Origin: Candidatus Uhrbacteria bacterium RIFCSPHIGHO2_02_FULL_46_47
Lineage (GTDB): Bacteria > Patescibacteriota > Patescibacteriia > GWA2-47-26
Assembly: GCA_001790815.1 (NCBI GenBank)
Contig: MGDU01000020.1
Location: 14,277 to 78,276 of the forward strand
Direction: 5' to 3'
DNA: 64,000 nt
The translations under genes and the position numbers were made by a program. Shown here one piece after another: positions 18,715-59,111 of the stretch (position 1 is its first letter; every line of letters starts with the position of its first letter). The notes beneath the pieces are model-generated. The model searched no databases. It was not told the DNA's origin and saw only the letters and a program-made list of their open reading frames with translations.

Positions 18715-19806
18715 CTATATTTTGATAATTGCCACACGATCCAATCTTGCCAGATCTTTTACTATTTTTACGCTGGCGCGCGGGAAAAATGTCCGCGCTA
18801 AAATTTTTATGTCGTCGGATTGATGAGGGTCAATTTCGCAAATTACAGACACTCGTAACTCCCCCTCACCCCCTCTTACCCTAAGAGGGGGAATGCCTTT
18901 TGACCCATCTCCTCCCCTTAAGATAAGGGGAGGTTGGGAGGGGTTATGTATTTTTTTCAATTGTTCAAACAATTTTCTATAATAATCCAACCCGGTTTTC
19001 CCTCCATCCAACGCGCCCCTAGGCTCAAAATTGCGCACTTCTGGCATAGCGCCCCGCCATTCACGGGTGGGCAGATACGGAAGATTGGCAGTGATTAGGA
19101 GATGAGTAGGTAGTATGTAGTATGTAGGAGGTAGAAATGGTTTGAGTAGGTTGCCATGGAAAAATTTAATTTTCTCTTCCACACCGTGCTGCTTGGCATT
19201 TTGTTTGGCCACGCGCAATGCCGCACGCGAGATATCAGTGGCAAAAAATGTAATCGCGTCTCCTCGTGGCCAGGCCACGGGTCGCGCCTGCGGCAGTGAC
19301 CTGGCCACTTCCACCGCGATTGCCACCACAATCGCCCCACTGCCAGTTCCAATATCAACAACCGTGTAACGTGTAGCGCGTAACTTGTAACGTGTCATTT
19401 CCTTGAGTGCCTCATCTACCAATATTTCCGTTTCCGGCCGCGGGATAAGCACATTTCTGTTCACTAAAAAATCCAATCCGTAAAATTCTTTGTGCCCGAT
19501 AATATACGCCACCGGCTCATGATTTATCCGTCGCGTGATAAATTGTTTAAAAATTTTGAGCTGCGCAGAGGTCAGTTTTTGCTCCGGATAGCCGTACAGC
19601 CATGCACGCCCCCTCACCTCATTCCTCTCCCTCAGGGAGAGGATGTCCAGTAGGACAGGTGAGGGTGAAACGGCATGCGTCAAAAGCACCTCCGCATCAA
19701 GCGCGGGTGAATCCGTCACTGAGTGATGGGCACCCTTATCACTCAGTGACGACCCGGTTTTTTTCAATTGCGCTATCCCCCACTTTAGCGCTTCGGCAAT
19801 TATCAT
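18715..19806 (-). CDS. prmC: Release-factor glutamine N5-methyltransferase PrmC/HemK
   Basis: VDIGTGSGAIVVAIA (SAM motif I) and the NLPYLP (NPPY) motif. Two in-frame repeat insertions (19611-19674 and 19093-19135). The 3' end reads through family-C elements at 18841-18950, so the native stop is probably near 18960. Confidence 0.8.
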   Translation of the reverse strand: MIIAEALKWGIAQLKKTGSSLSDKGAHHSVTDSPALDAEVLLTHAVSPSPVLLDILSLRERNEVRGRAWLYGYPEQKLTSAQLKIFKQFITRRINHEPVAYIIGHKEFYGLDFLVNRNVLIPRPETEILVDEALKEMTRYKLRATRYTVVDIGTGSGAIVVAIAVEVARSLPQARPVAWPRGDAITFFATDISRAALRVAKQNAKQHGVEEKIKFFHGNLLKPFLPPTYYILPTHLLITANLPYLPTREWRGAMPEVRNFEPRGALDGGKTGLDYYRKLFEQLKKIHNPSQPPLILRGGDGSKGIPPLRVRGGEGELRVSVICEIDPHQSDDIKILARTFFPRASVKIVKDLARLDRVAIIKI

Positions 19807-31674: not shown

Positions 31675-31727
31675 ACATTCGTCATTATATCAACTGTAAA
31701 CACCGTGTCAAATTATTGTAAACAGCA

Positions 31728-32606: not shown

Positions 32607-32645
32607 ATCTTTTTATATATCATATAAAATCACGACTGTCAATAT

Positions 32646-33347
32646 CTAGAGCTTTTGTAATTTATATACAACATCCTTTCTTTCCACCACAATTTCCCAT
32701 CCTTTTTTCTTGGCCACTTGGTACAAGCCGCTTGAAGGATTAAAAGCAATTGGCCGATCAACTATTTCAAACATTGAAATATCGCTTTCTGTATCCCCGA
32801 CCGCGATTGACCCGCGCAAGGTAACATTGTATTTTTCCAGCACATGCTTGATAAGCAAATGTTTGTTCCGCACGGAATAGATGTATTTCATATTTCCTGT
32901 ATAGCGGCCGCTTTTGTCAGTTTCAAGAACCCAGCCGTAGGTCTTATCAAATCGCAGGAAACGATTGTACCAACGCACAATTTCAAATGGCGATCCGGAT
33001 ATGGCCACAATAAAGTAATTCTTTTTCTTTAGCTCTAAAATAAGATCGCGCGTAAAGCGATACACATGCGACTTTTCACTGGATACAATTTTACGACTAA
33101 TGCGCCGTATATCGCTTTGCTTTTTCCCTCTGATATGCGCGATAAATACTTTTACTAATTTTTCAAGATACACATCATATGATCCTTTGCGATTAAGCCA
33201 GGCGCGCAAATACGGATCCACTTCTTCCCGTGCGCCTTTTGAAAAAATTCCTTCATTCACTAAATAGGAAAAAAGCCGGCGGGTTAAACTGCTTCTAAAA
33301 ATCGTTCCATCCACATCAAACACCGCTAATTTCCGCAATTTCTGCAT
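32646..33347 (-). CDS. HAD-superfamily hydrolase (HAD-IB-like)
   Basis: LAVFDVDGTI is HAD motif I. C-terminal ...GDTESDISMF is motif IV. Confidence 0.6.
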   Translation of the reverse strand: MQKLRKLAVFDVDGTIFRSSLTRRLFSYLVNEGIFSKGAREEVDPYLRAWLNRKGSYDVYLEKLVKVFIAHIRGKKQSDIRRISRKIVSSEKSHVYRFTRDLILELKKKNYFIVAISGSPFEIVRWYNRFLRFDKTYGWVLETDKSGRYTGNMKYIYSVRNKHLLIKHVLEKYNVTLRGSIAVGDTESDISMFEIVDRPIAFNPSSGLYQVAKKKGWEIVVERKDVVYKLQKL

Positions 33348-33465
33348 AGATGTGATGCAAATCTACAAATCTTATGCTAATTTACAAATTGCGAATTTGT
33401 ATTTGTAGATTTGAATGACATTTGTATATTGGCATTGTAGCACAGTTATGATATAGTCCCCTAAT

Positions 33466-34338
33466 ATGCAAGCTTATTTAGATATTGTCCGTCATATTTT
33501 AGAGCATGGAGAAATGAAGGAAAACCGTACTGGCGTGCGTGCGCTCACAGTTGCGGGCGCGATGTTTGAGCATGACATGGCGCAGGGCTTCCCCCTGCTC
33601 ACTACCAAAAAAATGCCGTTTAAAGTCATGGCCACGGAATTGGAATTTTTTATTAAAGGCGTGACAGACAAACAGTGGCTTAAAGATCGCAATTGCCATA
33701 TTTGGGATGAATGGGCTTCTCCTAAAAAAGCTCCGTATGGCCATGATGAGCAGTCAAAAAAACGCATGGCGCAGGAGCGAGATTTAGGGCCAGTATACGG
33801 TTTTCAATGGCGGCATTTTGGCGCGCCTTATCATAGCCATGATACAAACTATGATGGACAAGGCGTAGATCAACTGGCAAATCTTGTACAAAAACTCAAA
33901 ACCAATCCAGACGATCGTCGTATGATTGTCTGCGCTTGGAATCCAGTGGCTTTGCCGGAAATGGGTTTGCCGCCTTGCCATTACGCCTTTCAAGTAACAG
34001 TTATCAATGGCAAACTTAATCTGCTGTGGAATCAGCGTTCAGTAGATACTATGCTTGGTCTGCCCTTTAACATTTCCAGCTACGCGCTTCTTTTACACTT
34101 GCTTGCTAAAGAAGCAGGGCTGAAAGAAGGAAAACTGGTTGGATTTTTAGGCGATGTGCATATTTATGAAAATCATCTGGACGGCGCGAGAGAACAACTT
34201 ATCCGGGATCCGATGACATATGCGCTTCCCACAATCCAAACTGATCCATGGACTGGTATTTTCAACTGGGAAGCCACCCACACCAAACTCCTTGGCTACG
34301 AAAGTTATCCTAAGATTGAATTCCAAATTGCGGTATAG
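33466..34338 (+). CDS. thyA: Thymidylate synthase (ThyA)
   Basis: ...GPVYGFQWRHFGA...RRMIVCAWNPVALPEMGLPPCHYAFQ... contains the catalytic Cys motif. Confidence 0.95.
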   Translation: MQAYLDIVRHILEHGEMKENRTGVRALTVAGAMFEHDMAQGFPLLTTKKMPFKVMATELEFFIKGVTDKQWLKDRNCHIWDEWASPKKAPYGHDEQSKKRMAQERDLGPVYGFQWRHFGAPYHSHDTNYDGQGVDQLANLVQKLKTNPDDRRMIVCAWNPVALPEMGLPPCHYAFQVTVINGKLNLLWNQRSVDTMLGLPFNISSYALLLHLLAKEAGLKEGKLVGFLGDVHIYENHLDGAREQLIRDPMTYALPTIQTDPWTGIFNWEATHTKLLGYESYPKIEFQIAV

Positions 34339-34357
34339 TACAAGCAACGCACACTCA

Positions 34358-34403
34358 ATTAAAATAAAAAGAACTCCCGCACCAGGATGAACCCAGTGCG
34401 GGA
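34358..34403 (-). terminator. Rho-independent terminator (stem CTCCCGCAC/GTGCGGGAG) for the GC-rich gene
   Basis: 9-bp perfect stem with a T-run on the minus strand (A-run 34355-34370 on plus). It also sits after the thyA stop. Confidence 0.65.
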
Positions 34404-34428
34404 GAGTGCAACATGACCGAAACCGATG

Positions 34429-34890
34429 TTACTCGCTGACCGCGACGAGCCAGTGCCAGCCGCCGCTGAAGGCGCTGCCGACCCAGTCGAAGCCCGAGCG
34501 GCCGTAGCCGTGCACGCACGGGAAGGCGGCGTTGCCGTCCGGATCCGACCACGAGGAGTCGGCCACACCGATCTGACCTTTGCCGTCGGGCTTCCGGTAG
34601 CTGGCCTTGAACGCCTGACGCCACTGGCCCTCGGGGATCTTGCCGTGCGGCGCGAGCTTGCGCTTGACCTCCTCAAAGTCTCGGCAGTAACCGATCGCAA
34701 CGAGCTTGAAGCGGCAGGTCTGCGCGCCCTTGACCACACGGCCGTTGTGCTTCCACTTGCCGGTGTAGCCGTCGGTGTGCACCATCGCAAGCGGCTGGTT
34801 GTCGGACGCGTCGCCGTTGAGGGTGAGCTTGAAGACTTCGCCATCAGCCGGGTAGGCGAAGAACGGCTTCACCTCCGCCTCGCCGCGCAC
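34429..34890 (-). CDS. Hypothetical protein in a GC-rich island (possibly the 3' part of a frameshifted gene that continues at 34869..35057)
   Basis: Diverse, Trp/Lys-containing composition, unlike the overlapping Ala/Arg-rich alternative frames. The upstream 62-aa ORF 34869..35057 is in a different frame but contiguous. Confidence 0.45.
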   Translation of the reverse strand: MRGEAEVKPFFAYPADGEVFKLTLNGDASDNQPLAMVHTDGYTGKWKHNGRVVKGAQTCRFKLVAIGYCRDFEEVKRKLAPHGKIPEGQWRQAFKASYRKPDGKGQIGVADSSWSDPDGNAAFPCVHGYGRSGFDWVGSAFSGGWHWLVAVSE

Positions 34891-35545
34891 GACCGGCAGA
34901 GCCCCGCCGCCGTGTTGCCTTCCGAAAGTTTCTCGACGTCGGCGTTGGTCCAGCCGTTGCGACCAAACGCCAACGCCAGCTCGTGTGCCTGTCCTGTTGA
35001 CATCTGGAACGTGTCACCACTCATGACCTGTTCTCCCTTCTCATGCAACTGGTTCATCGCGAACTGTGTTGCAGTTCATGGCCAGAACCCATTTGTCCCA
35101 GCCTTATTTTGAAGGCAATAAAGCCGCCAAAACAAGGCCAGGAATCCTATTCAAAGAACACATTTTATACTACCATATTTTGGACAAAATGTCAAGAGTG
35201 GTGTAAAATGATGAGTGCAGTATGCAAAAACCACTCATCAATTACGCTTTTATTGGTGATTTTTATTGTCTTGTAAAATATTTTCTTAAGCAAAACAAGT
35301 TTGAACGCCTTATTGTACCAAATCGTTATAAATACTCGGTACTCCTGCACCGAGTCTTCTCCGGTTTGCCACAAATCACATTCATGAACGATTTAAAAAA
35401 TATTCTGGAATATAAAAAGAGCAACACCGGGTCTCCCCGGTGAAGCTCATATCGGGGGGTCTATGCAGAGACGGAACCCTGCACATGCCCTACCCGTAGT
35501 AATTCTAAACATAGTATACCATACCCATAAAAACTGTCAAGAGCT

Positions 35546-36157
35546 ATGATATCTATTATTGCCGCGGTTGCAAAAAATGGAGTAATCGGTGCGAAAAATG
35601 ATTTGCCCTGGTATTTGCCCGAAGACTTGAAGCATTTTAAAGAGCTCACTACAGGTAAAACAGTGCTGATGGGGCGCAAAACTTTTGAATCAATTCTGAA
35701 ACGTTTAGGCAAACCCTTGCCCAATCGCAAAAATGTGGTGGTCACGCGGGATCGAAATTATACCCTCTCACCCCCTCCTCAATCCTCCCCCATCAAGGGG
35801 GAGGAAGAAAAAGGAAAAAATCCTCTCCCACAAGGGGAGAGGAAGAACCAAAAAATTCCCTCTCCCTTAATGGGAGAGGGTGCTCCGACCGCAGTCGGAG
35901 CGGGTGAGGGTGTATGTGTACACCACTCGGTTGACGAAGCGCTTGAGCACCACAGTGCCGAAGAAATTATGGTTGCCGGCGGAGGCGAGATATTTAGGCA
36001 AACAATGGACAAAGCAGATACGCTTTATGTTACTGAAGTCGACAAAATTGTAGAAGGCGATGTTTATTTTCCAACGATTGATCCAAAGATCTGGAAAGAA
36101 GTTACCCGCGAACCACATGATGGTTTTTCATTTGTCACCTATATTCGCAATTCGTAG
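35546..36157 (+). CDS. folA: Dihydrofolate reductase carrying a ~55-aa in-frame repeat-element insertion
   Basis: MISIIAAVAKNGVIGAKNDLPWYLPEDLKHFKELTTGKTVLMGRKTFESI is canonical DHFR. The insertion TLSPPPQSSPIKGEEEKGKNPLPQGERKNQKIPSPLMGEGAPTAVGAGEGV is encoded by 35762-35928. Confidence 0.88.
   Translation: MISIIAAVAKNGVIGAKNDLPWYLPEDLKHFKELTTGKTVLMGRKTFESILKRLGKPLPNRKNVVVTRDRNYTLSPPPQSSPIKGEEEKGKNPLPQGERKNQKIPSPLMGEGAPTAVGAGEGVCVHHSVDEALEHHSAEEIMVAGGGEIFRQTMDKADTLYVTEVDKIVEGDVYFPTIDPKIWKEVTREPHDGFSFVTYIRNS
35762..35928. repeat. Composite nested palindromic element (outer CCCTCACCC...GGGTGAGGG; inner family-B core CCCCCTCCTCAATCCTCCCCCATCAAGGGGGAGG; CCCTCTCCC..GGGAGAGGG; GCTCCGACCGCAGTCGGAGC)
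   Basis: Four nested hairpins, GC-rich relative to the flanking folA sequence. Confidence 0.85.
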
Positions 36158-36177
36158 ATTGGCATGAAATTTGTAGA

Positions 36178-36879
36178 TTGGCATCACATATGAAAGGAAC
36201 TTTCATCGTTATTGAAGGCACAGACGGCTCTGGAAAAACAACCCATCTTGAACTGGCTGTAAAAAAACTCACTGCCGACAGCCGTGCAGTTGAAGTTGTG
36301 GATTTTCCACAATACGGCAAAAAAAGTGCTGGCCCGGTTGAAGAATACTTAAATGGGAAATATGGCAGCGCTCAAGAAGTGTCCCCTTATGTGGCTTCAC
36401 TTTTCTATGCAGTTGATCGTTTTGATGCCTCCTTCAAAATCAATAAAGCGCTTACTGATGGAAAAATCGTGCTGGCCAATCGCTATGTTCCGTCTAACAT
36501 CGCGCATCAAGGCGCAAAAATTACGGACATTGCTGAGCGGCAAAAATTCATGCATTGGGTAGAGGAGATAGAGTACGGCATTATGAAACTCCCCAGACCA
36601 GATCGCGTGATTTTCCTGCATGTACCAGCTCATATAAGCTTCGAGCTTGTCGAGAAGAAAAACGAACGCGCCTATTTGCAAGAAGGGAAAAAACGTGATA
36701 TCCATGAATCAGATCTTTTATACCAAAAAGCAGTGGAGCAAAGCTATCTTGAGCTTGCCGCGCATGATACTACTGTAAAGACGATAGAGTGCGCGCCGGA
36801 AGGAAAACTCCTTTACATTGAAGAAATTCATCCTTTAGTCATGAAACAAATTTATGATCTCTTTCAGCAATCTGCTTAA
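36178..36879 (+). CDS. tmk: Thymidylate kinase
   Basis: GTFIVIEGTDGSGKTT is the dTMP kinase P-loop, and the LID region is present. Confidence 0.9.
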   Translation: MASHMKGTFIVIEGTDGSGKTTHLELAVKKLTADSRAVEVVDFPQYGKKSAGPVEEYLNGKYGSAQEVSPYVASLFYAVDRFDASFKINKALTDGKIVLANRYVPSNIAHQGAKITDIAERQKFMHWVEEIEYGIMKLPRPDRVIFLHVPAHISFELVEKKNERAYLQEGKKRDIHESDLLYQKAVEQSYLELAAHDTTVKTIECAPEGKLLYIEEIHPLVMKQIYDLFQQSA

Positions 36880-37555
36880 AAAAACACTGGCTGCTTATTT
36901 TGCGAACTTCAAGGCCATCATGCCATTGCTCGCCGTGTTTGTAATTTGGCAAATCATAATCAATTTATTTTCGGCAGATATCAAAACGGCAATAAGCATA
37001 CTCCCGTATGTCGCGGCTTTCTCGCTTATCGTCGCGGCATTTACCCAACTTTTGCTTTGTCAGACCTTTGGCGATATCTTTAACGGGAAAACTCTGAGTG
37101 CAAGCACGGCGTATAAAGAATCCCTAAAACGTTTTCCGCTTTTTGTGATATTGCTTATATTGCTCGCGGTCATGGTTATCGGCGGACTTTTTTTAGCGCT
37201 TGTGCCCGGCATTATTTTCGCCACTTGGTTTATTTTTTTAGCGCCTGTACTGATGATTGAAAATACCAATATTAGTTCAACCTTCAAGCGCAGCAAATAT
37301 TTGGTCAGCGGAAATTTTTTCCAAGTTCTTTGGCAAACCGCGCTTGTCAGCGTTCTGATAATATTTATTGTAAATATGGCAACTCAAGGGTTGGCGGCAG
37401 TTGCAAAATTGATTACCCCCGGAGTTGCCTTGCCTTATGTATTGACTTTGTCTAACATAGTCGGAGCGTTTTTGGGGGCATTTACCAGCCCTATTATGGT
37501 CGGCTTTCTTGTTGCGCTTTACTTTGAACTGCGGAAATTAAAAAAAGAAATCTAG
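36854..37555 (+). CDS. Hypothetical polytopic membrane protein
   Basis: ~6 predicted TM helices. Overlaps the tmk 3' end by 26 nt. Confidence 0.5.
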   Translation: MISFSNLLKKTLAAYFANFKAIMPLLAVFVIWQIIINLFSADIKTAISILPYVAAFSLIVAAFTQLLLCQTFGDIFNGKTLSASTAYKESLKRFPLFVILLILLAVMVIGGLFLALVPGIIFATWFIFLAPVLMIENTNISSTFKRSKYLVSGNFFQVLWQTALVSVLIIFIVNMATQGLAAVAKLITPGVALPYVLTLSNIVGAFLGAFTSPIMVGFLVALYFELRKLKKEI

Positions 37556-37562
37556 CTTATCT

Positions 37563-39194
37563 ATGAAATATGAACCTATAATCGGGTTGGAAATCCATGT
37601 TCAACTCAAAACTAAAAGCAAGCTTTTCTGCGGTTGCGACAATCGCGGAGAAGACGCGCCGCCAAATACTACCGTGTGCCCTATTTGCATGGGACATCCC
37701 GGGACGCTTCCGGTATTGAATAAACAAGCGCTGGAATTTGGACTGATGGAAGCGCTGGCTTTGAATTGCAAAATTCCGGAAAAAGCAAAATTTGACCGGA
37801 AGAATTATTTTTATCCTGATTTGCCCAAGGGTTATCAAATTTCCATGTTTGATGAGCCAATTTGCGTGGACGGGCTTGTGCCGATTGATATTCAAGCCAC
37901 CGGAGGCGCGCGCAAGTACGCGGAAATCCGCATTACTCGCATTCATCTTGAAGATGATGCGGCAAAGAGTATGCATGCTCCCCCCTCACCCGACCCTCGG
38001 TCTCCATCTCCCGAAGGGGTCGAAGACGGGCCGAGCGAGCGCAGGCCCCGGGGAGGGCAGGGTGAGGGTAAAAATTCCACCTACGTCGATTTCAACCGCG
38101 CTGGGACGCCTTTGACTGAAATAGTGACTGAGCCGGATTTTCGCTCCCCACTTGAAGCCAAAACTTTTTTACACGAATTGCGCCGCATTATGCGCTATCT
38201 TGGAGTATCTGACGCGGATATGGAAAAAGGGCATATGCGTTGCGATGCCAATATCTCGTTACGCCCCCTTTCTTCACAATCTCCCTCTCCCCGTATGGGA
38301 GAGGGCGGGGGTGAGGGGTTATACCCAAAAACCGAAATCAAAAATATCAACTCCTTCCGCGCGGTTGAGCGGGCTTTACAGTATGAAATCCAACGTCAAA
38401 CAAAACTTTGGGAAGCAGGAACGCCACCGACCATTACTACTACCCGCGGCTGGAATGATGCTGAAGGAGTAACTGAGGAACAACGCGTGAAAGAGGAATC
38501 AGCCGATTATCACTATTTTCCTGAACCGGATTTGCCGCCCCTGCTTCTCCATGAAATTGCGGAGCAAGTCCGTCCGCGCATGCCAGAACTTCCCCGCGCA
38601 AAACGCACGCGTTTTCAAGAAGAGTACGGATTTCCGTCCGGGGATGCAATAATTTTAACGGAGGAAAAACAGCTGGCGGATTATGTGGAAAAAGTCATGT
38701 CAGAACTCCAAGCCTGGGTACGCACTCTTGAAACCGAAGGAACAGAAGAGGAAAAATGGGAAACGAATAAAAAGAAACTTACAAAACTATTTTCCGGCTG
38801 GTTTATTTCCAAACTTTTTGGACTTATGGAAAAACATGCAGTTGATATCCGCCGCCTCAAAATTACTCCGGAAAACTTTGCCGAATTTTTAACGCTTCTT
38901 CACGAAAATAAAATTTCGTCTGCGTCAGGACTTAAGCTTCTTGAAGATATGCTTTTGACCGGTGGCCACCCGCGCCTGATGGTTAAAGAGAAAAAACTGG
39001 AGCAAGTAACCAATGAGGAAGAAATTGCCTCTGTGGTGCAAGAAATTATTGATGCCAACCCTGAACCAGTAGCGGATTTTAAAGCTGGCAAGCAAAATGC
39101 ATTACAATTTTTAGTTGGCCAAGTTATGAAAGCGACCAAAGGCCGCGCCAACCCTCCCCTTGCCCAAAAACTACTAAAAAAAATGTTAAAATAG
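37563..39194 (+). CDS. gatB: Asp/Glu-tRNA(Asn/Gln) amidotransferase subunit B with two in-frame repeat insertions
   Basis: MKYEPIIGLEIHVQLKTKSKLFCGCDN... with a C-terminal YqeY-like domain. Insertions at 37987-38069 (PPSPDPRSPSPEGVEDGPSERRPRGGQGEGK) and 38263-38320 (SSQSPSPRMGEGGGEGL). Confidence 0.93.
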   Translation: MKYEPIIGLEIHVQLKTKSKLFCGCDNRGEDAPPNTTVCPICMGHPGTLPVLNKQALEFGLMEALALNCKIPEKAKFDRKNYFYPDLPKGYQISMFDEPICVDGLVPIDIQATGGARKYAEIRITRIHLEDDAAKSMHAPPSPDPRSPSPEGVEDGPSERRPRGGQGEGKNSTYVDFNRAGTPLTEIVTEPDFRSPLEAKTFLHELRRIMRYLGVSDADMEKGHMRCDANISLRPLSSQSPSPRMGEGGGEGLYPKTEIKNINSFRAVERALQYEIQRQTKLWEAGTPPTITTTRGWNDAEGVTEEQRVKEESADYHYFPEPDLPPLLLHEIAEQVRPRMPELPRAKRTRFQEEYGFPSGDAIILTEEKQLADYVEKVMSELQAWVRTLETEGTEEEKWETNKKKLTKLFSGWFISKLFGLMEKHAVDIRRLKITPENFAEFLTLLHENKISSASGLKLLEDMLLTGGHPRLMVKEKKLEQVTNEEEIASVVQEIIDANPEPVADFKAGKQNALQFLVGQVMKATKGRANPPLAQKLLKKMLK

Positions 39195-40222: not shown

Positions 40223-41206
40223 TCACAAACGAAAATTTCGCACGAGCCGTGCGGCTTCTTTTTTATTTTTCACCCACACAATTCTCTTATCCCTTTTAAA
40301 CCACGTCATCTGTCGGCGGGAATAATCTTTTATCGCGCGAGAAAGCTCTTTTTGCATCGTTCCGAGATTGGCGCGATCGCGAGAATCTCGGAATCCTGTT
40401 TTGGCACGGTAATTTTGCAAATAACGACTTATATGTCGATATTCTAAACCAAAGGATTCTAGGCGCTTCCAGGACACGCCTTGCGCGTGCAAACGCTCAA
40501 CTTCCTTAATCATCCCCTGCTTTAACCGCTCTTTAAGGCGTTTATCAATTCGGGGATCAAGCACATGTTTTGGAAAAGTAAGGCCTAGCATCAGCATCTC
40601 ATAAGGCGGCGGATGTTTTACGCGCTGTTTGGAAAGTGGAATGCCGGTCACCACACAAATCTCAATTGCCCGCTCCAGACGGCGGCGATTATTTTTATCA
40701 ATAGTGCGATATGTTTCCGGATCTAACTTTTTAAGTTTGGCACGCAACTCACGCAATGACATCGTGGCTAATTTTTTTCGTAACTTCAGATCAGGCGATG
40801 CCTCTGGCAAAACATAGCCATCAACCACAGCTTGCACATAAAGTCCAGTGCCACCAACCAGAATTGGCACTTTGCCGCGGCGCAAAATATCATCAATTGC
40901 TCTATATGCGAGCTTTTGATACTGCGCAAGCGTAAAATTCGTCCTTGGACTGACGATGTCAATAAGATGATACGGAATCCCCTCACCCCCGTCCCTCTCC
41001 CCGCGGGAGAGGGTGGCCGCAGGCCGGGTGAGGGCGGGGTGATGGCCATATTCGCTTAAATCTTTCCCCGTTCCAATATCCATGCCCTTATATACCTGCC
41101 GCGAATCCGCGCTTACAATCTCGCCATTAAACTTTCGTGCCAACTCAACCGCGAGTTTTGTTTTACCAGTGGCAGTTGGTCCAACGATTACAATTAATTT
41201 TTGCAT
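40223..41206 (-). CDS. miaA: tRNA dimethylallyltransferase with an in-frame repeat insertion
   Basis: MQKLIVIVGPTATGKTKLAVELA...ADSRQVYKGMDIGTGK... Insertion 40974-41052 encodes LTRPAATLSRGERDGGEG. Confidence 0.9.
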   Translation of the reverse strand: MQKLIVIVGPTATGKTKLAVELARKFNGEIVSADSRQVYKGMDIGTGKDLSEYGHHPALTRPAATLSRGERDGGEGIPYHLIDIVSPRTNFTLAQYQKLAYRAIDDILRRGKVPILVGGTGLYVQAVVDGYVLPEASPDLKLRKKLATMSLRELRAKLKKLDPETYRTIDKNNRRRLERAIEICVVTGIPLSKQRVKHPPPYEMLMLGLTFPKHVLDPRIDKRLKERLKQGMIKEVERLHAQGVSWKRLESFGLEYRHISRYLQNYRAKTGFRDSRDRANLGTMQKELSRAIKDYSRRQMTWFKRDKRIVWVKNKKEAARLVRNFRL

Positions 41207-49719: not shown

Positions 49720-52700
49720 TTATCCTACTATACTTACGGCATCTTTGCCAACTATGGATTTCAAGGATTGCAAAATAGCCGGCAAAGGATCAATGCAAAA
49801 ACTGGTCTCAATAGTGCGTTTTTGTCCATTTTGTTCAAGCACAATAAAGACCGGAAGCGCGCCATGGGTTGATGAAAGGAAAGTGCGCAATGTATCAAGA
49901 ATATTTTTATCTTGAGTGGCAAGGCTAATAAAGATACGCTGACCAGATGACAGAGGACGGATGACAGAGGACGGATCTGTCTTCTGTTTTCTGTCTTCTG
50001 TTTTACGCAAAGGCGCACCCTGAAGACCGGCGGCTACATTGTCATGCGTAAGCGGCATGGCGCGATCGCACACTACTCGTTTTTCCTCTCCTCCGCCTTT
50101 GCCCCACACACAAAGTAATGTGCCATCGGTAAATAATTCCGGACTGACTTTATAGGCCTTGGGAAATACGATAAGTTCGCATGATCCCGCAAGATCTTGC
50201 AGACGCGCGGTTAGCATGGCCTCGCCATTTTTAGTAAAACGTTTTTTGCAATCCACAAGCACCCCAGCCAACATTAGCGGCGTATTGTCTTTCAACTCGG
50301 TTAGGGCACCGGTAGCCACAACTTTGCCTTTGAGTACTTCTTCAAATTCATAAAGCGGATGCGAGGTAACATACAAACCCAGCAATTCTTTTTCCCACTG
50401 CAATTTTTCCTCCTTACTTGCCGGCGGAACATTGTCTTTAAGCGTCAGTTTGCGCACTTGCGGCAAAGCCCCAAACAGCGAACTCTGTTTAGTTGGCATC
50501 TCCGCCGCGCCCCGATTAAACGTGAGCATCACTTCCATGCTTTCCATCATGAAAGCGCGGTCGCCAAAGCGATCCATCGCGCCGGATTTTACCAAACTTT
50601 CCAGCGATTTCTTGTTCAAATTCTTGTGCTGAACGCGTTTTAGACAGTCTTCCAAATCCACAAACAAACCGTTACTTTCACGCTCGGCAATTATTGCCCC
50701 CACTACATCAGTCCCTAAATTTTTAATCGCGAGCAACCCAAAACGAATATGTGTATCATCCACATATGTAAAATCCTTTCCGCTTTCATTAACATCCGGC
50801 GGAAGAACAGTAATTCCGGCTTCACGCGCGCCGGCAATTACTTCCGCAACTTTATCACTATTTCCAGCTTCAGCAGTCAAAATCGCGGTGATAAATTCCG
50901 CCGGAAAATGCGCTTTCATGTAGGCGGTTTGATAAGCTACCATGCCATAGGAGGCGGCATGCGCTTTGTTAAAGCCGTAAGCCGCAAATGGCTCAATAAG
51001 GGCCCAAAGCTCTTCTGCCTTTGTTCGCGGAAGGCCGCCTTTCACACAGCCGGTTAAAAATTTCTCGCGCTGGGCAATCATTTCGCGCGGAATCTTTTTT
51101 CCCATTGCTTTGCGCAGTTTATCTGCCTCTTCCCAACTGTAACCGGCAAGCTCAATAGCAATCAAAAGCACGTCGTCTTGATAAACCAAAATTCCATAAG
51201 TGCGCTCCAAAATTGTCGCCAGGCGCGGATCCAAATATGATACAAGGCGCGGATTATGTTTGCGGCGAATATACTCCGGGATTGATTCCATCGGACCGGG
51301 GCGAAACAGCGCAACCATGGCCATAATATCATGAATTGAAGAGGGCTTGAGTTCTTTTAAATAGCGCGTCATGCCAGATCCGGCAAGCTGGAATACACCC
51401 ATGGTATCCCCGCGCGAAAGCATTTCAAAAGTTTTAGCATCGTGGGACGGAAGTTTTCCAATATCAATCTCCATTCCTTTTGTTTTCTTCACGATTGAAA
51501 CGGCATCTCCAAGAATGGAGAGATTGCGAATGCCAAGCATATCCATTTTAACCAGCCCTGCCGCCTCGGCAGCGTGCATGTCATATTGAGTGATGATATT
51601 GTCGCCATTGGCTTCACGCGCAAGCGGAGTAAAATCCGTAAGTTTGGTAGGCGCGATAACCATACCGGCGGCATGCACTGAAGCATGGCGCGCGCATCCC
51701 TCAACTTTGCGCGCCAGATCAAGCACGCGCTTAACATTTGCATCTTCGTTGTAAAGTTTTCCAAGATCCGGATTTTCCTCAAGCGCGCGATCAACAGTCA
51801 TGTGAAATCCTTGCGCGCCTGGCGGAATCATTTTAGAAATTTTATCACCAAAAGAATAGGGCAGGCCAAGTACGCGCGTTACATCACGCACAGCCGCGCG
51901 TGGTAGCATGGTTCCAAACGTGCAAATCTGCGCCACTTTATCCGCGCCGTACTTTTGACGCACATAATCAATCACCTCATCACGGCGATTATCCGCGAAA
52001 TCCACATCAATATCCGGCGGGGTTGGACGGGTGACAGTTAAAAATCGCTCAAATGGCAGTTTAAAATCCAAAGGATTTATCGTAGTTATATCAATAAGAT
52101 ATGAAACCAGCGATCCTGCGGCTGAACCGCGAGTAGTTACCACAATGCCTTGCTCGCGCGCCCATTTTACATAATCTGACACAATCAAAAAATAAGTAGA
52201 GAAACCAGTTTTCTTAATTACATCAAGCTCGTAATCAATACGCTTTTTAATCTCATCTGTAACTCCCCCTCCCCTCACCCCTCCCACAGGTGGAGGGGAA
52301 TTTATTTTTTCTTCCTCCCCCTTTATGGGGGAGGATTGAGGTGGGGGTGCACCAAATTTTTCCTGCGCCCCCTGCCAGGTAAGCTCCTGCAAATACTCAT
52401 CATGAGTTTTGCCTTGGGTTGGAAATTGCGGAAAAGCCCATTTATTAAGCGTGAGTTCCAGATTGCAAAGCTCGGCCACTTTCAAAGTATTTGCCACCGC
52501 CTCTGGCATGTCAGCCCATTGTTCTTCCACCCGTTTGGGCGAGGCAAACGAAAGATCCGCGCCAGTCATGTTCAGACGGCCTTTGTCAGTGATAAATTTT
52601 CCAGTTTGCACGCAAACCAGTACATCCTGGGCTTCGGCGTCGTCAGCGTGCAAATAATGGCTGTCTACAGTGGCAACCGGAAGCAGGCCCAGTTCTTTAC

Positions 52701-55377: not shown

Positions 55378-57963
55378 TTAATTTCTAATCTTTGCCCCAA
55401 ACTTATCCTTTAACATCTTGACCAGTTTCTCGTGCACGCGCTCAGCTTCTTGCGCTGTAAGTGTCCGCTCAGGGCTCACATAACTTAAATGAAAAGCCAC
55501 ACTGCGGCTTCCCTCCGGCACGCCTTTGCCTTCATATAAATCAAATAGCTCGACTTTGTGCAGAAGAGGATCAATTTGCTGTATTGCGGCAACCAGTGTT
55601 GCGTATTCCACAGTCTTTGGTGCCACAAATGCAATATCGCGCTTTACTGGCGGATAAGACAATGGCGCACGATATACCCTCCCGCTTCCAATAAGCGGCA
55701 GAAGCACTTTTGCTTCCCATTCCAAAAATGCTACGCGTTGCTCTATGCCATATGCTTTAAGGAGCGATGGGTGTAATTCCCCTACCACACCTAGTATATC
55801 ACGCCCAGCCTTGCATAACAAAACCCGGCCGGGATGATAGCGGCTGGCCCAGGGTGTCTTTTCTGATTTGGCAATTTTTTCAAATGAAAAATCAGAAAGT
55901 CCAAGCACATATGCTAAATGTTCTGCTATACCCTTGAGTCCAAAAAAGTGCTGACCGTCGCGCTCTTCGCGACCGGCACAGGATACGATAAGTTTTTGTC
56001 GTTCCTCTGGCAACTCACCCATGCGCGGATGGTATTCGCTTGAGAGTTCAAAAAATTTCAACATCTTTCCGGCTTCTTCATTTTTTTTGATTGACAAAAG
56101 CATGGAAATTCCCAGCCATGGCCGCATATGCGTAATTTCAGAGCTTAATGGATTTTGCAAAGCTACTGCATTCTCAACTTTAAGCCCAGCGCGCAATATT
56201 TCATCTGCCGAAATAAATGAGTAAGTATACAATTCAGTAAGACCTGCACCGCGCAAAATTTCCTTTATCATGCGCTCTTGCGCAAATTGTATATTTGGTG
56301 GTTCATCTGGCGGTGCGCCGGCCGGCAATACACTTGGTAGATTATGGTATCCATACATGCGTGCTACTTCCTCCGCAATATCTGCAAGCCCGCCAGCTTC
56401 TATTTCGCGCCAGTATGGAAAGGTCACGCTCCACTTGTTTGCACTGCCAGCAACCTTAAATCCTAATCCAGTTAAATACTTTTTCATCTGTGTTGCCGGT
56501 ATTTCCACGCCGATCATGCGCGAAATATCCTGTGGAGAAACTTTAACCTTGTTCCCCTCACCCTGCCCTCTCCCTAGGGGAGAGGATGGCCGAAGGCCAA
56601 GTGAGGGTTTCCGATCCACAACCTGCACCACTTCCCCGCCAGCCACTTGTTTTGTAAGCTCGGCCAATCGCGCAGCAGCAAATTCCGGCAACTGTGTTGG
56701 CAAACCTTTGTTAAAGCGTGCAGATGAATCGCTGGAAAGGCCAAGCTGATGCTCGCCGCGTCGCACTGTAACCGGATCAAAATTAGCAATTTCATATACA
56801 ATACGCATGGTATCTGCATGCACGCCGGTTTCTTCTCCTCCCATAATTCCAGCAATGGCAACTGGCCGTCCTGCCCCGTAGTGTTGCTTTGCACTACTAC
56901 TGGGGTTGGCATCCGCAATCACTAAAATATTTTCATCAAGATCATAAGTATTTCCATCCAGTGCCAAAATTTTCTCACCCTTCTTCCCCATCCGCACCAC
57001 AATCTCCGTTCGTGTCTGTTCGTCTCCGTTTCGTGTATTGTTCGTGTGTTGCAGCTTTGCTGCATCGAAGGCATGACATGGTTGTCCCCATTCCAAAAGC
57101 ACATAATTTGTAATATCCACGATATTGTTGATCGGCCGCACACCAGAGGCGATCAGTCGTCTTTTCAGCCACCAGGGCGATGGACCAACTTTTACACCCT
57201 CCATCACCACGGCCATATATCGGGGACAAAGTTTCGGCACTTCCACTTTTACCTCTAATGATTTTTGGATTTGGGATTTGGGATTTGTTTGAAATTTGGT
57301 GCTTGGGATTTGGAATTTTACACCCAATATCGCCCCCACTTCCCTTGCCAATCCAATCATTCCCATAGCATCCGGCCGATTGGTAGTGATTTCAATTTCC
57401 ATTACTGTGTCATCAAGACCAAGCGCCTTTGCCAGAGGTGTGCCGGGCTTGGCCTTGGTCCAAGTTAAATCCAAAATCTCGCGTTTCCCACCACCCTCTC
57501 CCTCTCCCCGGGGGAGAGGGTGCAGGGTGAGGGCTTCAAGTCCAATTTCATTTGCCGCGCAAATCATGCCTTCACTTTTTACTCCGCGAATTTCAGTTAT
57601 TTTCATTTCAACCTGTTCTCCTTCTCCATGCCAGCGCACCTTCGCGCCTGGAAGAGCAACAGCCACCAATTGTCCTTCAAACAAATTTGTTCCGCCGCAC
57701 ACAATAGGGACGTTCCCCTTTTTGGTCGCAAAAAGGGGAACGTCCCCTACTTCGACCATCACTACACGCAACTTGTCCGCATTCGGATGTTTTTCAATCT
57801 TCACGATTTTTCCTATCACGATATTTTCCAAACCCTCATCCGTTCTCCACCATCTTTCAACTGAAAAAGCATGCAAAGATAATTTCTGCGCCACTTCTTC
57901 CGGAGACGCTTTTAATCCAGGCAAATATTCACGCAACCAATTGTATGAAACCATTAAATTCAT
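55378..57963 (-). CDS. pheT: Phenylalanyl-tRNA synthetase beta subunit with two in-frame repeat insertions
   Basis: tRNA-binding, B3/4 and B5 domains and the C-terminal FDX-ACB. Insertions at 56546-56612 and 57487-57535. Confidence 0.93.
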   Translation of the reverse strand: MNLMVSYNWLREYLPGLKASPEEVAQKLSLHAFSVERWWRTDEGLENIVIGKIVKIEKHPNADKLRVVMVEVGDVPLFATKKGNVPIVCGGTNLFEGQLVAVALPGAKVRWHGEGEQVEMKITEIRGVKSEGMICAANEIGLEALTLHPLPRGEGEGGGKREILDLTWTKAKPGTPLAKALGLDDTVMEIEITTNRPDAMGMIGLAREVGAILGVKFQIPSTKFQTNPKSQIQKSLEVKVEVPKLCPRYMAVVMEGVKVGPSPWWLKRRLIASGVRPINNIVDITNYVLLEWGQPCHAFDAAKLQHTNNTRNGDEQTRTEIVVRMGKKGEKILALDGNTYDLDENILVIADANPSSSAKQHYGAGRPVAIAGIMGGEETGVHADTMRIVYEIANFDPVTVRRGEHQLGLSSDSSARFNKGLPTQLPEFAAARLAELTKQVAGGEVVQVVDRKPSLGLRPSSPLGRGQGEGNKVKVSPQDISRMIGVEIPATQMKKYLTGLGFKVAGSANKWSVTFPYWREIEAGGLADIAEEVARMYGYHNLPSVLPAGAPPDEPPNIQFAQERMIKEILRGAGLTELYTYSFISADEILRAGLKVENAVALQNPLSSEITHMRPWLGISMLLSIKKNEEAGKMLKFFELSSEYHPRMGELPEERQKLIVSCAGREERDGQHFFGLKGIAEHLAYVLGLSDFSFEKIAKSEKTPWASRYHPGRVLLCKAGRDILGVVGELHPSLLKAYGIEQRVAFLEWEAKVLLPLIGSGRVYRAPLSYPPVKRDIAFVAPKTVEYATLVAAIQQIDPLLHKVELFDLYEGKGVPEGSRSVAFHLSYVSPERTLTAQEAERVHEKLVKMLKDKFGAKIRN

Positions 57964-57965
57964 AT

Positions 57966-59111
57966 TTAAAATTGCTCTAGAAAATTCAGATCCGCAATAT
58001 AAAATGCCCGAATATCGCTGAGTTTCAACTTCATCATAAGCATGCGTTCAATTCCCCAACCGCAGGCAAACCCGCTATATTCCTTTGGATCAATTCCGCC
58101 GGCTTTTAAAACATTGGGGTGTACCATGCCAGCTCCGCCCAGTTCATGCCACCCGCTTTTGCATACTTTGCACCGCTCGCCATGTATTTCTCCAGTGCCA
58201 CCACAAATGCCGCAGGAAATATCAATTTCAAAACTCGGTTCAGTAAACCGAAAATGAAATGGCCGCAAACGCGTGCGCCGATCTTTTCCATAATAAGCGC
58301 GCGCAAAATAATCAAGCGTGCCTTTCAAATGTGTAACCGATACATTGCGATCAATCAACAACCCTTCAAATTGATGAAACATCGGCGCGTGCGTAACATC
58401 AGATTGCCGGCGATAGCATTTTGCAATATTGATCATGCGAATGGGTGGCCGCCGGCGCTCCATCTCGCGCACCTGGCCATTGGAAGTGTGCGGGGTAAGT
58501 ACCATCCTGCCTAACTTTGGATGTTCTGCGGCCCTCACCCTCCCCTCTCTCTCGGGGAGAGGGTGTCCGTTAGGACGGGTGAGGGTCTGCTGCGAGCCAG
58601 CAATGAAGAACGTTTCCCATTCATCGCGCGCTGGATGGCCCTTGGGCATGTTTAAACTTTCAAACGCGTAATAATCCCAATCTATTTCCGGATAACGCAT
58701 ACGCTGAAATCCCAGTTGCGCGAAAATCCGGCTGATTTCTTCAATCGCCTGCGTGGTGATATGCAAATGTCCGTACGGCAGGCGCGCGCCCGGAAGCGTT
58801 ACATCCAGCGCCTCGGCTTCAGCCAGTTTTTCCAAAGCAAGTGTTTGCATTGCATTTTCCCGTTGTTCTAGTGCTCTAGTGATTTCATGCTTTAATGCGT
58901 TAAGCTCCTGCCCTTGCCTTGCCCGCTCATCACCTTTTAATTTTGTAAGCTGCGCAAAAAACTCGGCCACAATCCCCTTGCGGCCCAGATATTTCACCCG
59001 CAATTCCTCCAGCACACTTTGTGATTGTGCTTGCTCAATAGCCTGCTTGGCCTCCTGTAAAATATTATTGGATTTCATATTATTCGTAATGTCGTAGTTT
59101 CGTAGCGACAT
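57966..59111 (-). CDS. pheS: Phenylalanyl-tRNA synthetase alpha subunit with an in-frame repeat insertion
   Basis: Class II core (...FRFTEPSFEIDI..., GWGIERMLM). Insertion 58522-58590. The true start may be the internal Met at ~59078. Confidence 0.93.
   Translation of the reverse strand: MSLRNYDITNNMKSNNILQEAKQAIEQAQSQSVLEELRVKYLGRKGIVAEFFAQLTKLKGDERARQGQELNALKHEITRALEQRENAMQTLALEKLAEAEALDVTLPGARLPYGHLHITTQAIEEISRIFAQLGFQRMRYPEIDWDYYAFESLNMPKGHPARDEWETFFIAGSQQTLTRPNGHPLPEREGRVRAAEHPKLGRMVLTPHTSNGQVREMERRRPPIRMINIAKCYRRQSDVTHAPMFHQFEGLLIDRNVSVTHLKGTLDYFARAYYGKDRRTRLRPFHFRFTEPSFEIDISCGICGGTGEIHGERCKVCKSGWHELGGAGMVHPNVLKAGGIDPKEYSGFACGWGIERMLMMKLKLSDIRAFYIADLNFLEQF

What the first reader, a model, noticed from the sequence alone, without database searches (positions are those of the whole stretch)
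35762..35928. Dihydrofolate reductase carrying a ~55-residue nested palindromic insertion
DHFR is normally ~160 aa. Here it is 203 aa because a 167-nt composite made of four nested hairpins (outer family-A arms, an inner family-B core and two further palindromes) sits between VVVTRDRNY and HHSVDEALEH. This is the largest insertion in the window and it lies in an enzyme whose fold tolerates loops poorly. The question is whether the enzyme is still functional or whether the RNA or DNA structure is the selected entity.
Basis: partly seen in the sequence, partly recalled or inferred. Interest (0 to 1): 0.7.

Follow-up and report, generated by a model that had tools for sequence, protein, structure and literature searches.

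The report
Repeat DNA inserted in-frame in DHFR
A dihydrofolate reductase gene of an uncultured Patescibacteria (CPR) bacterium carries a 150-base stack of GC-rich palindromic repeats (partly the long-known BoxC / "intrastrand triplex" repeat) that is read through as a floppy 50-residue surface loop, so the enzyme is probably still working and the repeat is a tolerated DNA-level passenger.

Summary
ORF 35546-36157 is a 203-aa DHFR. Codons 73-122 (nt 35762-35911) are an in-frame, stop-free stack of four perfect hairpins inside an outer stem (RNA fold z = -9.5).

It lies in the betaC-betaD surface loop of the adenosine-binding subdomain, not in the core or the Met20 or F-G loops. AlphaFold2 gives the core pLDDT >90 and the insert about 43-76, with no secondary structure. 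Catalytic and ligand-binding residues are conserved. The core is under strong purifying selection (pN 0.08-0.25, pS 0.6-0.8).

Relatives carry different module combinations at this loop; one has the double-hairpin unit in the opposite order, and one site is empty.

The insert belongs to a repeat population found in frame in ten more places in eight other housekeeping genes of the window. Its 3' module fits the BoxC/PIT/"TM" consensus except that the second loop is a 21-nt hairpin. That repeat is described as intergenic in E. coli and has no known function. The DNA is conserved and read in several frames; the peptide is not.

Best reading: a selfish or structure-maintained repeat tolerated in a permissive loop, comparable to Rickettsia palindromic elements. 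How it moves is unknown.

The parts
35546..36157 (+). folA CDS, 203-aa dihydrofolate reductase (stop included)
   Evidence: ORF list; Pfam PF00186 E 9.5e-52 in two stretches; PDB phmmer and Foldseek matches to DHFRs
35762..35911 (+). In-frame insert, codons 73-122 (TLSPPPQSSPIKGEEEKGKNPLPQGERKNQKIPSPLMGEGAPTAVGAGEG). Pro/Gly/Glu/Lys-rich and predicted disordered.
   Evidence: Absent from 157-aa homologues and from solved DHFRs; pLDDT about 43-76 and no secondary structure
35760..35778 (+). Left outer arm (ATACCCTCTCACCCCCTCC)
   Evidence: Inverted repeat I2, 84% complementary to 35897-35915
35897..35915 (+). Right outer arm (GGAGCGGGTGAGGGTGTAT). It contains the third BoxC block GGGTGAGGG at 35902-35910.
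35783..35805 (+). Hairpin 1, 'family B' (TCCTCCCCC-ATCAA-GGGGGAGGA)
   Evidence: It lies in the 35769-35828 stretch that matches the dnaE copy. The module is missing from the closest homologue P0002 and from L081, L084 and L085.
35769..35828 (+). Stretch homologous to the repeat copy in dnaE (52292-52349, minus strand): 42/44 identical at the 5' end, 52/58 overall. Same peptide, PPQSSPIKGEEEK.
   Evidence: Local alignment; translations
35821..35843 (+). Hairpin 2 (TCCTCTCCC-ACAAG-GGGAGAGGA), flanked by A-rich spacers 35806-35820 and 35844-35857
   Evidence: On the antisense strand it is followed by a T-run and looks like a terminator.
35858..35910 (+). BoxC/PIT/TM-like module: CCCTCTCCC-N5-GGGAGAGGG-[21-nt second loop]-GGGTGAGGG
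   Evidence: Matches the relaxed TM_ECO consensus, with 0 hits in shuffles. Consensus from PMC4666352.
35882..35901 (+). Hairpin 4 (GCTCCGAC-CGCA-GTCGGAGC), which occupies the second loop of the BoxC-like module
   Evidence: There is a compensatory C>A / G>T difference in L084, and stems covary in other loci.
37980..38071 (+). Related composite insert in gatB (ppspdprspspegvedgpserrprggqgegk)
38275..38320 (+). Second gatB insert; 38283-38317 matches the strict TM_ECO consensus
18860..18948 (-). Two-hairpin insert in prmC
19608..19668 (-). Double-hairpin unit with both outer arms, in prmC
40977..41040 (-). Double-hairpin unit in miaA
46160..46230 (-). Two-hairpin insert in thrS
52268..52349 (-). 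Family-B insert in dnaE
56552..56612 (-). Double-hairpin unit in pheT
57490..57536 (-). BoxC-like unit in pheT
58529..58588 (-). Double-hairpin unit in pheS

Best explanation
The 150-nt segment is a pile-up of short GC-rich palindromic repeat modules. The 3' part (35858-35910) is a BoxC / PIT / 'intrastrand triplex motif' unit whose second loop has grown into an extra hairpin. The 5' part is a 'family-B' hairpin plus A-rich spacer, homologous to a copy in dnaE, followed by a hybrid hairpin.

These repeats are a DNA-level entity. They are selfish or maintained for their structure, and they are dispersed through this Patescibacteria genome. Copies survive only where they keep the reading frame, avoid the TGA frame of GGGTGAGGG, and land in a permissive surface loop.

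In folA that place is the betaC-betaD loop of the adenosine-binding subdomain. The ribosome reads straight through and makes a 50-residue Pro/Gly/Glu/Lys-rich disordered loop. The DHFR core is untouched and the enzyme stays functional.

The composite grew stepwise. An older unit (outer arms, CCTCTCCC hairpin and small hairpin) is shared with relatives. A module of about 40 nt was added recently.

Shown: the anatomy, the reading frame, the position in the fold, core conservation, DNA-level conservation, and dispersed near-identical copies. Inferred: translation of the insert, retained enzyme activity, and stepwise accretion. Unknown: how the repeats move. Candidates are a trans-acting hairpin-specific enzyme, or template switching or gene conversion between copies.
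For: Anatomy and non-randomness.

Frame: all 11 composite elements in the window lie inside long ORFs with family domains on both sides, and none has a stop. The hosts are folA, gatB x2, prmC x2, miaA, thrS, dnaE, pheT x2 and pheS.

Position in the fold: phmmer against the PDB aligns residues 2-73 and 121-192 to Coxiella DHFR residues 3-70 and 72-144. In the AF2 model 150 residues have pLDDT >=90, strands are at 62-66 and 123-126, and the insert is a low-confidence coil. Foldseek gives TM 0.92 and rmsd 1.3 A to 3tqa. The alignment to E. coli DHFR puts the insert in the 64-72 loop.

Function: D27, W22, F31, G43, T46, R61, G145-G146 and T163 are invariant in 111 homologues. Core pN is 0.08-0.25 against saturated pS of 0.6-0.8 among insert-bearing alleles. 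folA sits in a dTMP cluster with thyA, tmk, dUTPase and dCMP deaminase.

DNA-level entity: the same motifs are read in several frames. GGTGAGGG is read as GEG 6 times and as VR 3 times. CCTCTCCC is read in all three frames. The BoxC-like module is 93% identical between the window and L084, although synonymous sites of the flanking core are saturated, and one difference is a compensatory pair. Second-loop stems covary across loci.

Mobility and turnover: the dnaE copy is 42/44 identical. Relatives have different module sets at the same loop, one has the double-hairpin unit in the opposite order, and one site is empty.

Family: the consensus and properties of BoxC/PIT/TM come from PMC4666352. 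The motif is present in all 5426 E. coli genomes searched, in more than 120 metagenome stretches with GC 31-75%, and in more than 120 viral contigs.
Against: There is no direct evidence that the insert is translated or that the protein is active. No transposase or other mobility gene was found in about 60 window ORFs or recurrently next to the motif in 80 metagenome loci. No target-site duplication is visible. 'Mobile' therefore rests on dispersed near-identical copies and on presence/absence among relatives. Nucleotide conservation well above the synonymous background would also fit a selected cis-acting RNA or DNA function. BoxC/TM elements were described as strictly intergenic in E. coli, and the DHFR module breaks the N3 second-loop rule. 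The insert starts only about 5 residues after T67-R68. By my alignment to E. coli S63-S64 (from memory of the E. coli structure), those residues should contact the NADPH 2'-phosphate, so an effect on cofactor binding cannot be excluded.
Confidence: 0.72

Rival explanations
1. The nucleic-acid structure is itself selected for a cis function within folA. The possibilities are an mRNA stabiliser, a ribosome pause between the N- and C-terminal halves of the protein, a terminator of antisense transcription, or a replication/recombination signal. On this reading the peptide is only a by-product.
For: The module is 93% identical between alleles whose synonymous sites are saturated, and one difference is compensatory. 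The stems are perfect and the fold is very stable. On the antisense strand hairpins 2 and 3 are followed by T-runs and score as terminator-like. Second-loop hairpins covary across unrelated loci.
Against: Close homologues do without it (157-aa alleles; L082 is an empty site) or carry different module sets and orders. The same repeats sit in many unrelated genes and, in other taxa, between genes. PIT/TM elements showed no promoter or terminator activity in E. coli, according to PMC4666352. Recent insertion, or gene conversion from a conserved pool, explains the conservation equally well.
Confidence: 0.15
2. The inserted peptide is an adaptive addition to DHFR. It could be a docking or linker loop for a partner such as ThyA, or a CPR-specific interaction surface.
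For: The same loop carries insertions in about 10 of the 120 best homologues, some of them not obviously palindromic (P0055, P0111). The insert is next to the cofactor-binding edge of the protein.
Against: Peptides differ in length, sequence, frame and module order between close relatives. The same DNA gives different peptides in other hosts. The loop is predicted to be disordered. Composition is dictated by the C-rich and G-rich arms.
Confidence: 0.06
3. The segment is not translated. It would be bypassed by the ribosome, like the GC-rich 'byp' elements of Magnusiomyces mitochondria or the T4 gene 60 gap, or removed from the RNA like an intron or intervening sequence.
For: The GC-rich hairpin composition resembles mitochondrial byps and GC clusters (from my own knowledge).
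Against: All 11 elements in the window and all 8 insert-bearing folA alleles keep the frame and have no stop. That would not be required if the segment were skipped. Rfam gives no intron or other family match at gathering score, and only noise below it.
Confidence: 0.04
4. The feature is an artefact or a decaying gene: an assembly chimera at a repeat, or a folA pseudogene.
For: Short-read assemblies do break at these repeats. L083 starts 28 nt upstream of the folA insert and ends at the end of the first gatB insert.
Against: An identical sequence occurs in a separate assembly record. The ORF is intact, its catalytic residues are conserved and dN/dS is low. Homologous inserts occur in several other metagenomes.
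Confidence: 0.03

Closest known systems
BoxC / PIT (potential intrastrand triplex) / TM_ECO repeats of E. coli and many other bacteria (Holder et al. 2015, PMC4666352; earlier Bergler, Bachellier and Maher, as cited there)
   Same: The three 9-nt blocks CCCTCNCCC ... GGGNGAGGG ... GGGNGAGGG are the same, with a 3-6-nt first loop. Both are multi-copy and dispersed, with palindromic two-armed versions. Neither has a linked transposase. In both, the local sequence varies around them. The gatB copy at 38283-38317 fits the published consensus exactly.
   Different: In E. coli the repeats are described as always intergenic. Here every copy is in frame inside a housekeeping gene. The folA module has a 21-nt hairpin in place of the 3-nt second loop. 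It is also stacked with further hairpin modules that are not BoxC.
Rickettsia palindromic elements (RPE) (summarised in PMC10969869)
   Same: Both are palindromic repeats of about 100-150 bp inserted in frame into unrelated metabolic and housekeeping genes of a small-genome bacterium. Both are compatible with the host protein fold. No transposase is known for either.
   Different: No sequence relationship was tested, and none is expected, because by my recollection RPEs are AT-rich. Each RPE family encodes a conserved peptide, whereas here the same DNA is read in several frames and in both orders. The host is Patescibacteria, not Rickettsia. The elements here are modular and stack on one another.
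Mitochondrial GC clusters, double-hairpin elements (Allomyces) and 'byp' elements (Magnusiomyces) - from my own knowledge, not checked in the library
   Same: All are short mobile GC-rich hairpin or double-hairpin modules in a lower-GC genome, found inside coding regions.
   Different: Byps are skipped by the ribosome and need not keep the frame. Here the frame is always kept. The hosts and sequences are unrelated.
REP/BIME elements with RAYT (Y1) transposases, and MITEs
   Same: Short dispersed palindromes that cluster into mosaics. A structure-specific, single-strand-based mechanism is conceivable.
   Different: No RAYT or other transposase was seen in the window. There are no terminal inverted repeats with target-site duplication. 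The location is genic rather than extragenic.

Membership tests
DHFR (Pfam PF00186, FolA type) | Sequence match to the family profile across the whole domain | tested here: met
   E 9.5e-52 in two stretches: residues 1-74 match profile positions 1-70, and the rest matches after the insert. 173 PDB DHFR sequences match.
DHFR (Pfam PF00186, FolA type) | Fold, and conserved catalytic and ligand-binding residues (Asp27, Trp22, Phe31, Thr46, Arg57, Gly95-96 and Thr113 in E. coli numbering) | tested here: met
   AF2 core pLDDT >90. Foldseek TM 0.92 and rmsd 1.3 A to 3tqa. D27, W22, F31, T46, R61, G145/146 and T163 are invariant in alignment A2. Alignment to E. coli DHFR.
DHFR (Pfam PF00186, FolA type) | NADPH-dependent reduction of dihydrofolate | not testable with these tools
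   Needs an enzyme assay or complementation. Supported only indirectly, by purifying selection and linkage to thyA.
BoxC / PIT / TM_ECO repeat | Blocks CCCTCNCCC, GGGNGAGGG and GGGNGAGGG in that order, with a first loop of 3-6 nt | tested here: met
   35858-35866, 35872-35880 and 35902-35910; first loop TTAAT. Consensus from PMC4666352.
BoxC / PIT / TM_ECO repeat | Second loop of 3 nt | tested here: not met
   The folA module has a 21-nt second loop that contains an 8-bp hairpin. The gatB copy at 38283-38317 does meet the rule. Hairpin-bearing second loops recur in other loci.
BoxC / PIT / TM_ECO repeat | Intergenic location (as described for E. coli MG1655) | tested here: not met
   All window copies are inside ORFs and in frame.
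BoxC / PIT / TM_ECO repeat | Dispersed, multi-copy, and not linked to a transposon gene | tested here: met
   At least 8 units in 64 kb. No transposase family among about 60 ORFs. No recurrent neighbouring gene in 80 loci.
BoxC / PIT / TM_ECO repeat | Forms an intrastrand triplex as a single strand in vitro | not testable with these tools
   Needs CD or NMR on the 35858-35910 oligonucleotide. ViennaRNA models hairpins only.
Rickettsia palindromic elements (RPE) | Sequence membership in one of the RPE families | not tested
   No RPE consensus was available in the tools. The composition (GC-rich arms) and the host differ.
Rickettsia palindromic elements (RPE) | Palindromic repeat inserted in frame in unrelated genes, compatible with the host fold | tested here: met
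Rickettsia palindromic elements (RPE) | Each family encodes a conserved peptide | tested here: not met
   The same motifs are read in two or three frames and in both orders. Only the family-B copies in folA and dnaE share a peptide.
Translational bypass elements (byps) | The element interrupts the reading frame or carries stops and is skipped by the ribosome | tested here: not met
   11 of 11 window copies and 8 of 8 insert-bearing folA alleles are in frame and stop-free.
REP / RAYT system | A cognate Y1 (RAYT) transposase gene flanked by REPs | tested here: inconclusive
   None in the 64-kb window. The rest of the genome was not available.
MITE | Terminal inverted repeats plus a target-site duplication | tested here: inconclusive
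   Outer arms exist. No duplication is visible when the filled site is compared with the empty site in L082. The boundaries are blurred because the arms supply host codons.

The most novel reading that the evidence does not exclude
The BoxC/'triplex-motif' double-hairpin may be a structure-defined DNA parasite that crosses phyla. It is also carried on viral contigs. In compact Patescibacteria genomes, and occasionally elsewhere (HsdM, Mfd), it colonises coding sequence in frame and stacks on earlier copies, and so creates new disordered protein loops. In this window its orientation follows the genome strand rather than the gene strand. That would point to a mechanism based on single-stranded DNA and coupled to replication, with no element-encoded enzyme.
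Probability: 0.22. Interest if true: 0.72.

Novelty: new variant of a known kind. Interest (0 to 1): 0.5.

Why it matters
BoxC/PIT/TM repeats have been known since the 1990s. They are conserved across very distant bacteria and still have no accepted function or mode of spread. Finding them, and relatives with extra hairpins, in frame inside essential enzymes gives a new handle on them. The hosts here are DHFR, DnaE, three aminoacyl-tRNA synthetase genes (thrS, pheS, pheT), GatB, MiaA and PrmC.

Coding copies carry a built-in selection filter of frame, stop codons and loop tolerance. They also come with a neutral yardstick, the synonymous sites of the host gene. Against that yardstick the repeat is clearly over-conserved.

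The case also extends the 'Rickettsia palindromic element' phenomenon to the candidate phyla radiation. It offers a natural experiment on how much foreign loop a small, well-studied enzyme can carry. There is a practical point too: these repeats break short-read assemblies and inflate protein lengths in CPR annotations.

Tried and rejected
- The genome-contig scan with the DHFR alignment returned only relatives of 47% identity or less, none with an informative insert. Close alleles had to be fetched one at a time.
- Literature searches for palindromic or in-frame repeats in Patescibacteria/Parcubacteria found nothing relevant. A search by raw motif strings gave only noise. The link to BoxC came from blastn hits in E. 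coli and then.
- I looked for a recurrent neighbouring gene (transposase or RAYT) in 80 metagenome loci by all-against-all BLAST. The largest cluster covered only 8 loci, and I did not identify what it encodes.
- A Pfam scan of about 60 window ORFs found no transposase.
- Rfam gave no hit at gathering score and only sub-threshold microRNA and snoRNA noise.
- I tested whether the GC-rich island between thyA and folA is a diversity-generating retroelement piece, because L081 has a bAvd-like gene there. There is no template/variable repeat pair and no Pfam or PHROG hit. It is left unexplained.
- I considered local tandem duplication as the origin of hairpin 1 (29-nt direct repeat, 83% identical). 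The 42/44 match to the dnaE copy fits a dispersed-copy origin better.
- dS is saturated, so exact dN/dS values are not meaningful. Only the contrast between pN and pS is used.

Full report
**Observation.** The ORF at 35546-36157 (+) encodes 203 aa. It matches Pfam DHFR_1 at E 9.5e-52, in two stretches separated by a gap in the profile alignment. Between nt 35760 and 35915, the repeat finder reports an outer inverted repeat (35760-35778 / 35897-35915; 19 nt, 84% complementary). Inside it are four perfect hairpins: 35783-35805, 35821-35843 and 35858-35880 (9-bp stems, 5-nt loops) and 35882-35901 (8-bp stem, 4-nt loop). As RNA the region folds to -96.8 kcal/mol, against -56.4 +/- 4.3 for shuffles (z -9.45). 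As DNA z is -8.8, and the antisense RNA gives z -8.8. The finding's coordinates and description are therefore correct, with three adjustments. The insert proper is residues 73-122 (nt 35762-35911, 50 aa). VCVHH belongs to host strand betaD. The hairpins lie side by side within one outer stem. A JGI metagenome contig (L083) is 100% identical to window 35734-38072, so the reading frame is not an accident of one assembly.

**Where the insert sits in the enzyme.** phmmer against PDB sequences aligns residues 2-73 and 121-192 to residues 3-70 and 72-144 of Coxiella DHFR, so about 47 residues have no counterpart. An AlphaFold2 model built from 111 homologues has mean pLDDT 86 and pTM 0.77. In it 150 residues have pLDDT of at least 90. 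Strands are at 62-66 (betaC) and 123-126 (betaD). Blocks 71-120 are a coil with pLDDT about 43-76. Foldseek superposes the model on solved DHFRs (3tqa: TM 0.92 normalised to the target, rmsd 1.3 A). A global alignment to E. coli DHFR puts the insert in the 64-72 loop of the adenosine-binding subdomain. This is a surface loop, remote from the Met20 and F-G loops. It lies a few residues after T67-R68, which align with the E. coli residues that, from my memory of that structure, touch the NADPH 2'-phosphate.

**Is the enzyme likely to work?** In the 111-sequence alignment D27, W22, F31, G43, T46, R61, G145-G146 and T163 are invariant. Among nine alleles (eight with inserts, one without) the 154 core codons show pN 0.08-0.25, while pS is 0.6-0.8, which is saturated. 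Insert-bearing genes have therefore been under strong purifying selection for a long time. folA also sits in a thymidylate cluster with dCMP deaminase, dUTPase, thyA and tmk. A ThyA-type synthase produces dihydrofolate and needs DHFR (established biochemistry). The inference is that the enzyme is functional. This was not shown.

**The insert is one member of a repeat population.** Pattern searches find the same motifs far above chance across the window. CCTCTCCC-N3-8-GGGAGAGG occurs 7 times against 0 in shuffles. CCCTCWCC occurs 26 times against 1.8 expected. A scan for GC-rich perfect hairpins gives 46 raw hits, which include several overlapping stem/loop readings of the same hairpin, against a mean of 2.45 in shuffles. 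All those of the CCCTC type lie in long ORFs, apart from one at 63942-63964 that overruns the end of the ORF call at the window edge. Eleven composite elements sit in frame and stop-free in folA, gatB (2), prmC (2), miaA, thrS, dnaE, pheT (2) and pheS. The recurrent unit is CCCTCACC, then [CCTCTCCC-loop-GGGAGAGG], then [a small GNCC-type hairpin], then GGTGAGGG. The same DNA is translated differently in different hosts. GGTGAGGG is read as GEG six times and as VR three times, and never in its TGA frame. CCTCTCCC is read in all three frames. The unit lies in either order relative to the coding strand. What is shared is DNA, not peptide.

**Relatives.** The best protein hits are unnamed metagenome proteins. 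Those that carry a name are mostly from Parcubacteria, Doudnabacteria and other Patescibacteria. Uninserted alleles are 156-158 aa. About 10 of the 120 best hits have extra residues at exactly this loop. The DNA of eight alleles shows different combinations of the same modules. L084 and L081 share the outer arms, a CCTCTCCC hairpin and a small hairpin. L085 has a family-B hairpin plus the BoxC-like module. L086 has the double-hairpin unit in the opposite order. L089 has a family-B hairpin split by a further insertion. L082 is an empty site (YVAPAEVCLHH). Compared with L081, L084 and L085, the window has one extra module of about 40 nt. The closest homologue, P0002 (81% identical by BLASTP), lacks that module. 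That module and its left flank (35769-35812) match a copy in dnaE at 42 of 44 positions and give the same peptide, PPQSSPIKGEEEK. The composite therefore grew by accretion. The loop has been hit, or remodelled, more than once.

**DNA-level conservation.** The BoxC-like module is 50/54 identical between the window and L084, although synonymous sites in the flanking core differ at 76% of sites. Two of the four differences are the paired change GCTCCGAC/GTCGGAGC to GATCCGAC/GTCGGATC, which keeps the stem perfect. Across all fetched loci the second-loop hairpin appears with many different but complementary stems: GGCC/GGCC, GGCGC/GCGCC, GGCCC/GGGCC, GTCC/GGAC and GATTCTGCG/CGCAGAATC. A stem of at least 4 bp occurs in 23 of 81 cases, against 8% in shuffled loops. 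Either the structure is under selection, or copies are continually renewed from a conserved pool. The data do not separate the two.

**What the repeat is.** A blastn search with a consensus unit hit all 5426 E. coli genomes, with a median of 17 places each. It also hit plasmids of Rhizobium, Klebsiella, Azospirillum and others. This led to Holder et al. 2015 (PMC4666352). They describe BoxC, also called PIT elements or TM_ECO, with consensus CCCTCNCCC-N3-6-GGGNGAGGG-N3-GGGNGAGGG. It forms an intrastrand triplex in vitro and has 23 copies in E. coli MG1655, always intergenic. It is not linked to transposons, phages or plasmids, and showed no promoter or terminator activity. It is associated with local sequence instability and occurs in more than 260 genomes. 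In the window the strict consensus is met at 38283-38317 in gatB. With a relaxed second loop it is met at 35858-35910 (folA), 40980/40993 (miaA) and 57500 (pheT). The metagenome hits came from contigs of 31-75% GC. Some of those copies are also in frame inside genes, for example within the N6_Mtase domain of an HsdM (L102) and between domains of an Mfd (L158).

**Mechanism and rivals.** The best-supported reading is a DNA-level repeat that persists only where translation through it is harmless. In this reading the folA loop acts both as a permissive site and as a landing pad for further modules. Translational bypass or RNA removal is unlikely, because every copy keeps the frame and Rfam finds nothing. 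An adaptive peptide is unlikely, because the peptides are not conserved. A selected cis-acting structure remains possible. The module is over-conserved, and on the antisense strand hairpins 2 and 3 plus their T-runs look like terminators. How the repeat spreads is not known. There is no transposase in the window and no recurrent neighbouring gene in 80 loci.

**Comparison and novelty.** The closest kinds are BoxC/PIT/TM repeats (same motif, but intergenic and single) and Rickettsia palindromic elements (same behaviour, but with family-specific conserved peptides; PMC10969869). I found no description of BoxC-type repeats as in-frame inserts, or of such elements in Patescibacteria. I rate it a new variant of a known kind, of moderate interest.

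Noticed in passing
window 34339-35545: thyA and folA are separated by 1.2 kb. The gap holds a GC-rich island (34355-35112; 57% GC in the 34001-35000 kb block, against about 42-45% in the neighbouring blocks) with an antisense 153-aa ORF (34429-34890). The ORF has no Pfam or PHROG match and has its own strong terminator-like hairpin (34404-34374). A promoter-like site lies at 35181-35209, upstream of folA. In relative L090 thyA and folA overlap. In L081 a bAvd/23S_rRNA_IVP-like gene sits in the gap.
   Followed up: partly
window 37980-38071 and 38275-38320 (gatB): GatB carries two in-frame repeat inserts. The second (38283-38317) matches the published E. coli BoxC/TM consensus exactly and is translated as SPSPRMGEGGGEG.
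   Followed up: yes
window 19611, 35858, 40980, 56555, 58532: All five double-hairpin units have the small GNCC-type hairpin 3' of the CCTCTCCC hairpin on the window + strand, whatever the strand of the host gene. GC skew is negative over almost the whole window. This could mean orientation follows the replication strand, but n = 5 (p about 0.06).
   Followed up: partly
L083 (= window 35734-38072): The ends of this independent short contig fall 28 nt before the folA insert and at the end of the first gatB insert. These repeats therefore break short-read assemblies.
   Followed up: partly
The metagenome contigs have 31-75% GC. Holder et al. reported no link to phages in E. coli. IMG/VR includes prophages, so host flanks may explain some of the viral hits.
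   Followed up: partly
L102 3636-3672; L158 3532-3564: The same motif lies in frame inside an HsdM methylase (within the N6_Mtase domain) and in an Mfd/TRCF protein (between Helicase_C and the TRCF domain) of unrelated, higher-GC organisms. Genic copies are therefore not confined to Patescibacteria.
   Followed up: partly
window 35821-35880, minus strand: On the strand antisense to folA, hairpins 2 and 3 are each followed by a T-run and score as intrinsic-terminator-like. In folA, dnaE and thrS the A-rich spacer is always on the coding strand. This avoids both a sense-strand terminator and poly-Phe codons.
   Followed up: no
window 46201-46223 and 63942-63964: Two identical copies of a further palindrome (CCCTCCCT-TAAGGTA-AGGGAGGG). 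One is in thrS. The other overruns the end of the ORF call 63424-63957 at the window edge.
   Followed up: no
window 29190-36879: A compact deoxynucleotide/thymidylate cluster: dCMP deaminase, a P-loop kinase-like protein (AAA_18), dUTPase, (three minus-strand ORFs plus a HAD hydrolase), thyA, folA and tmk. Relative L090 has a similar set in another order (AAA_18, dUTPase, tmk, thyA, folA).
   Followed up: partly
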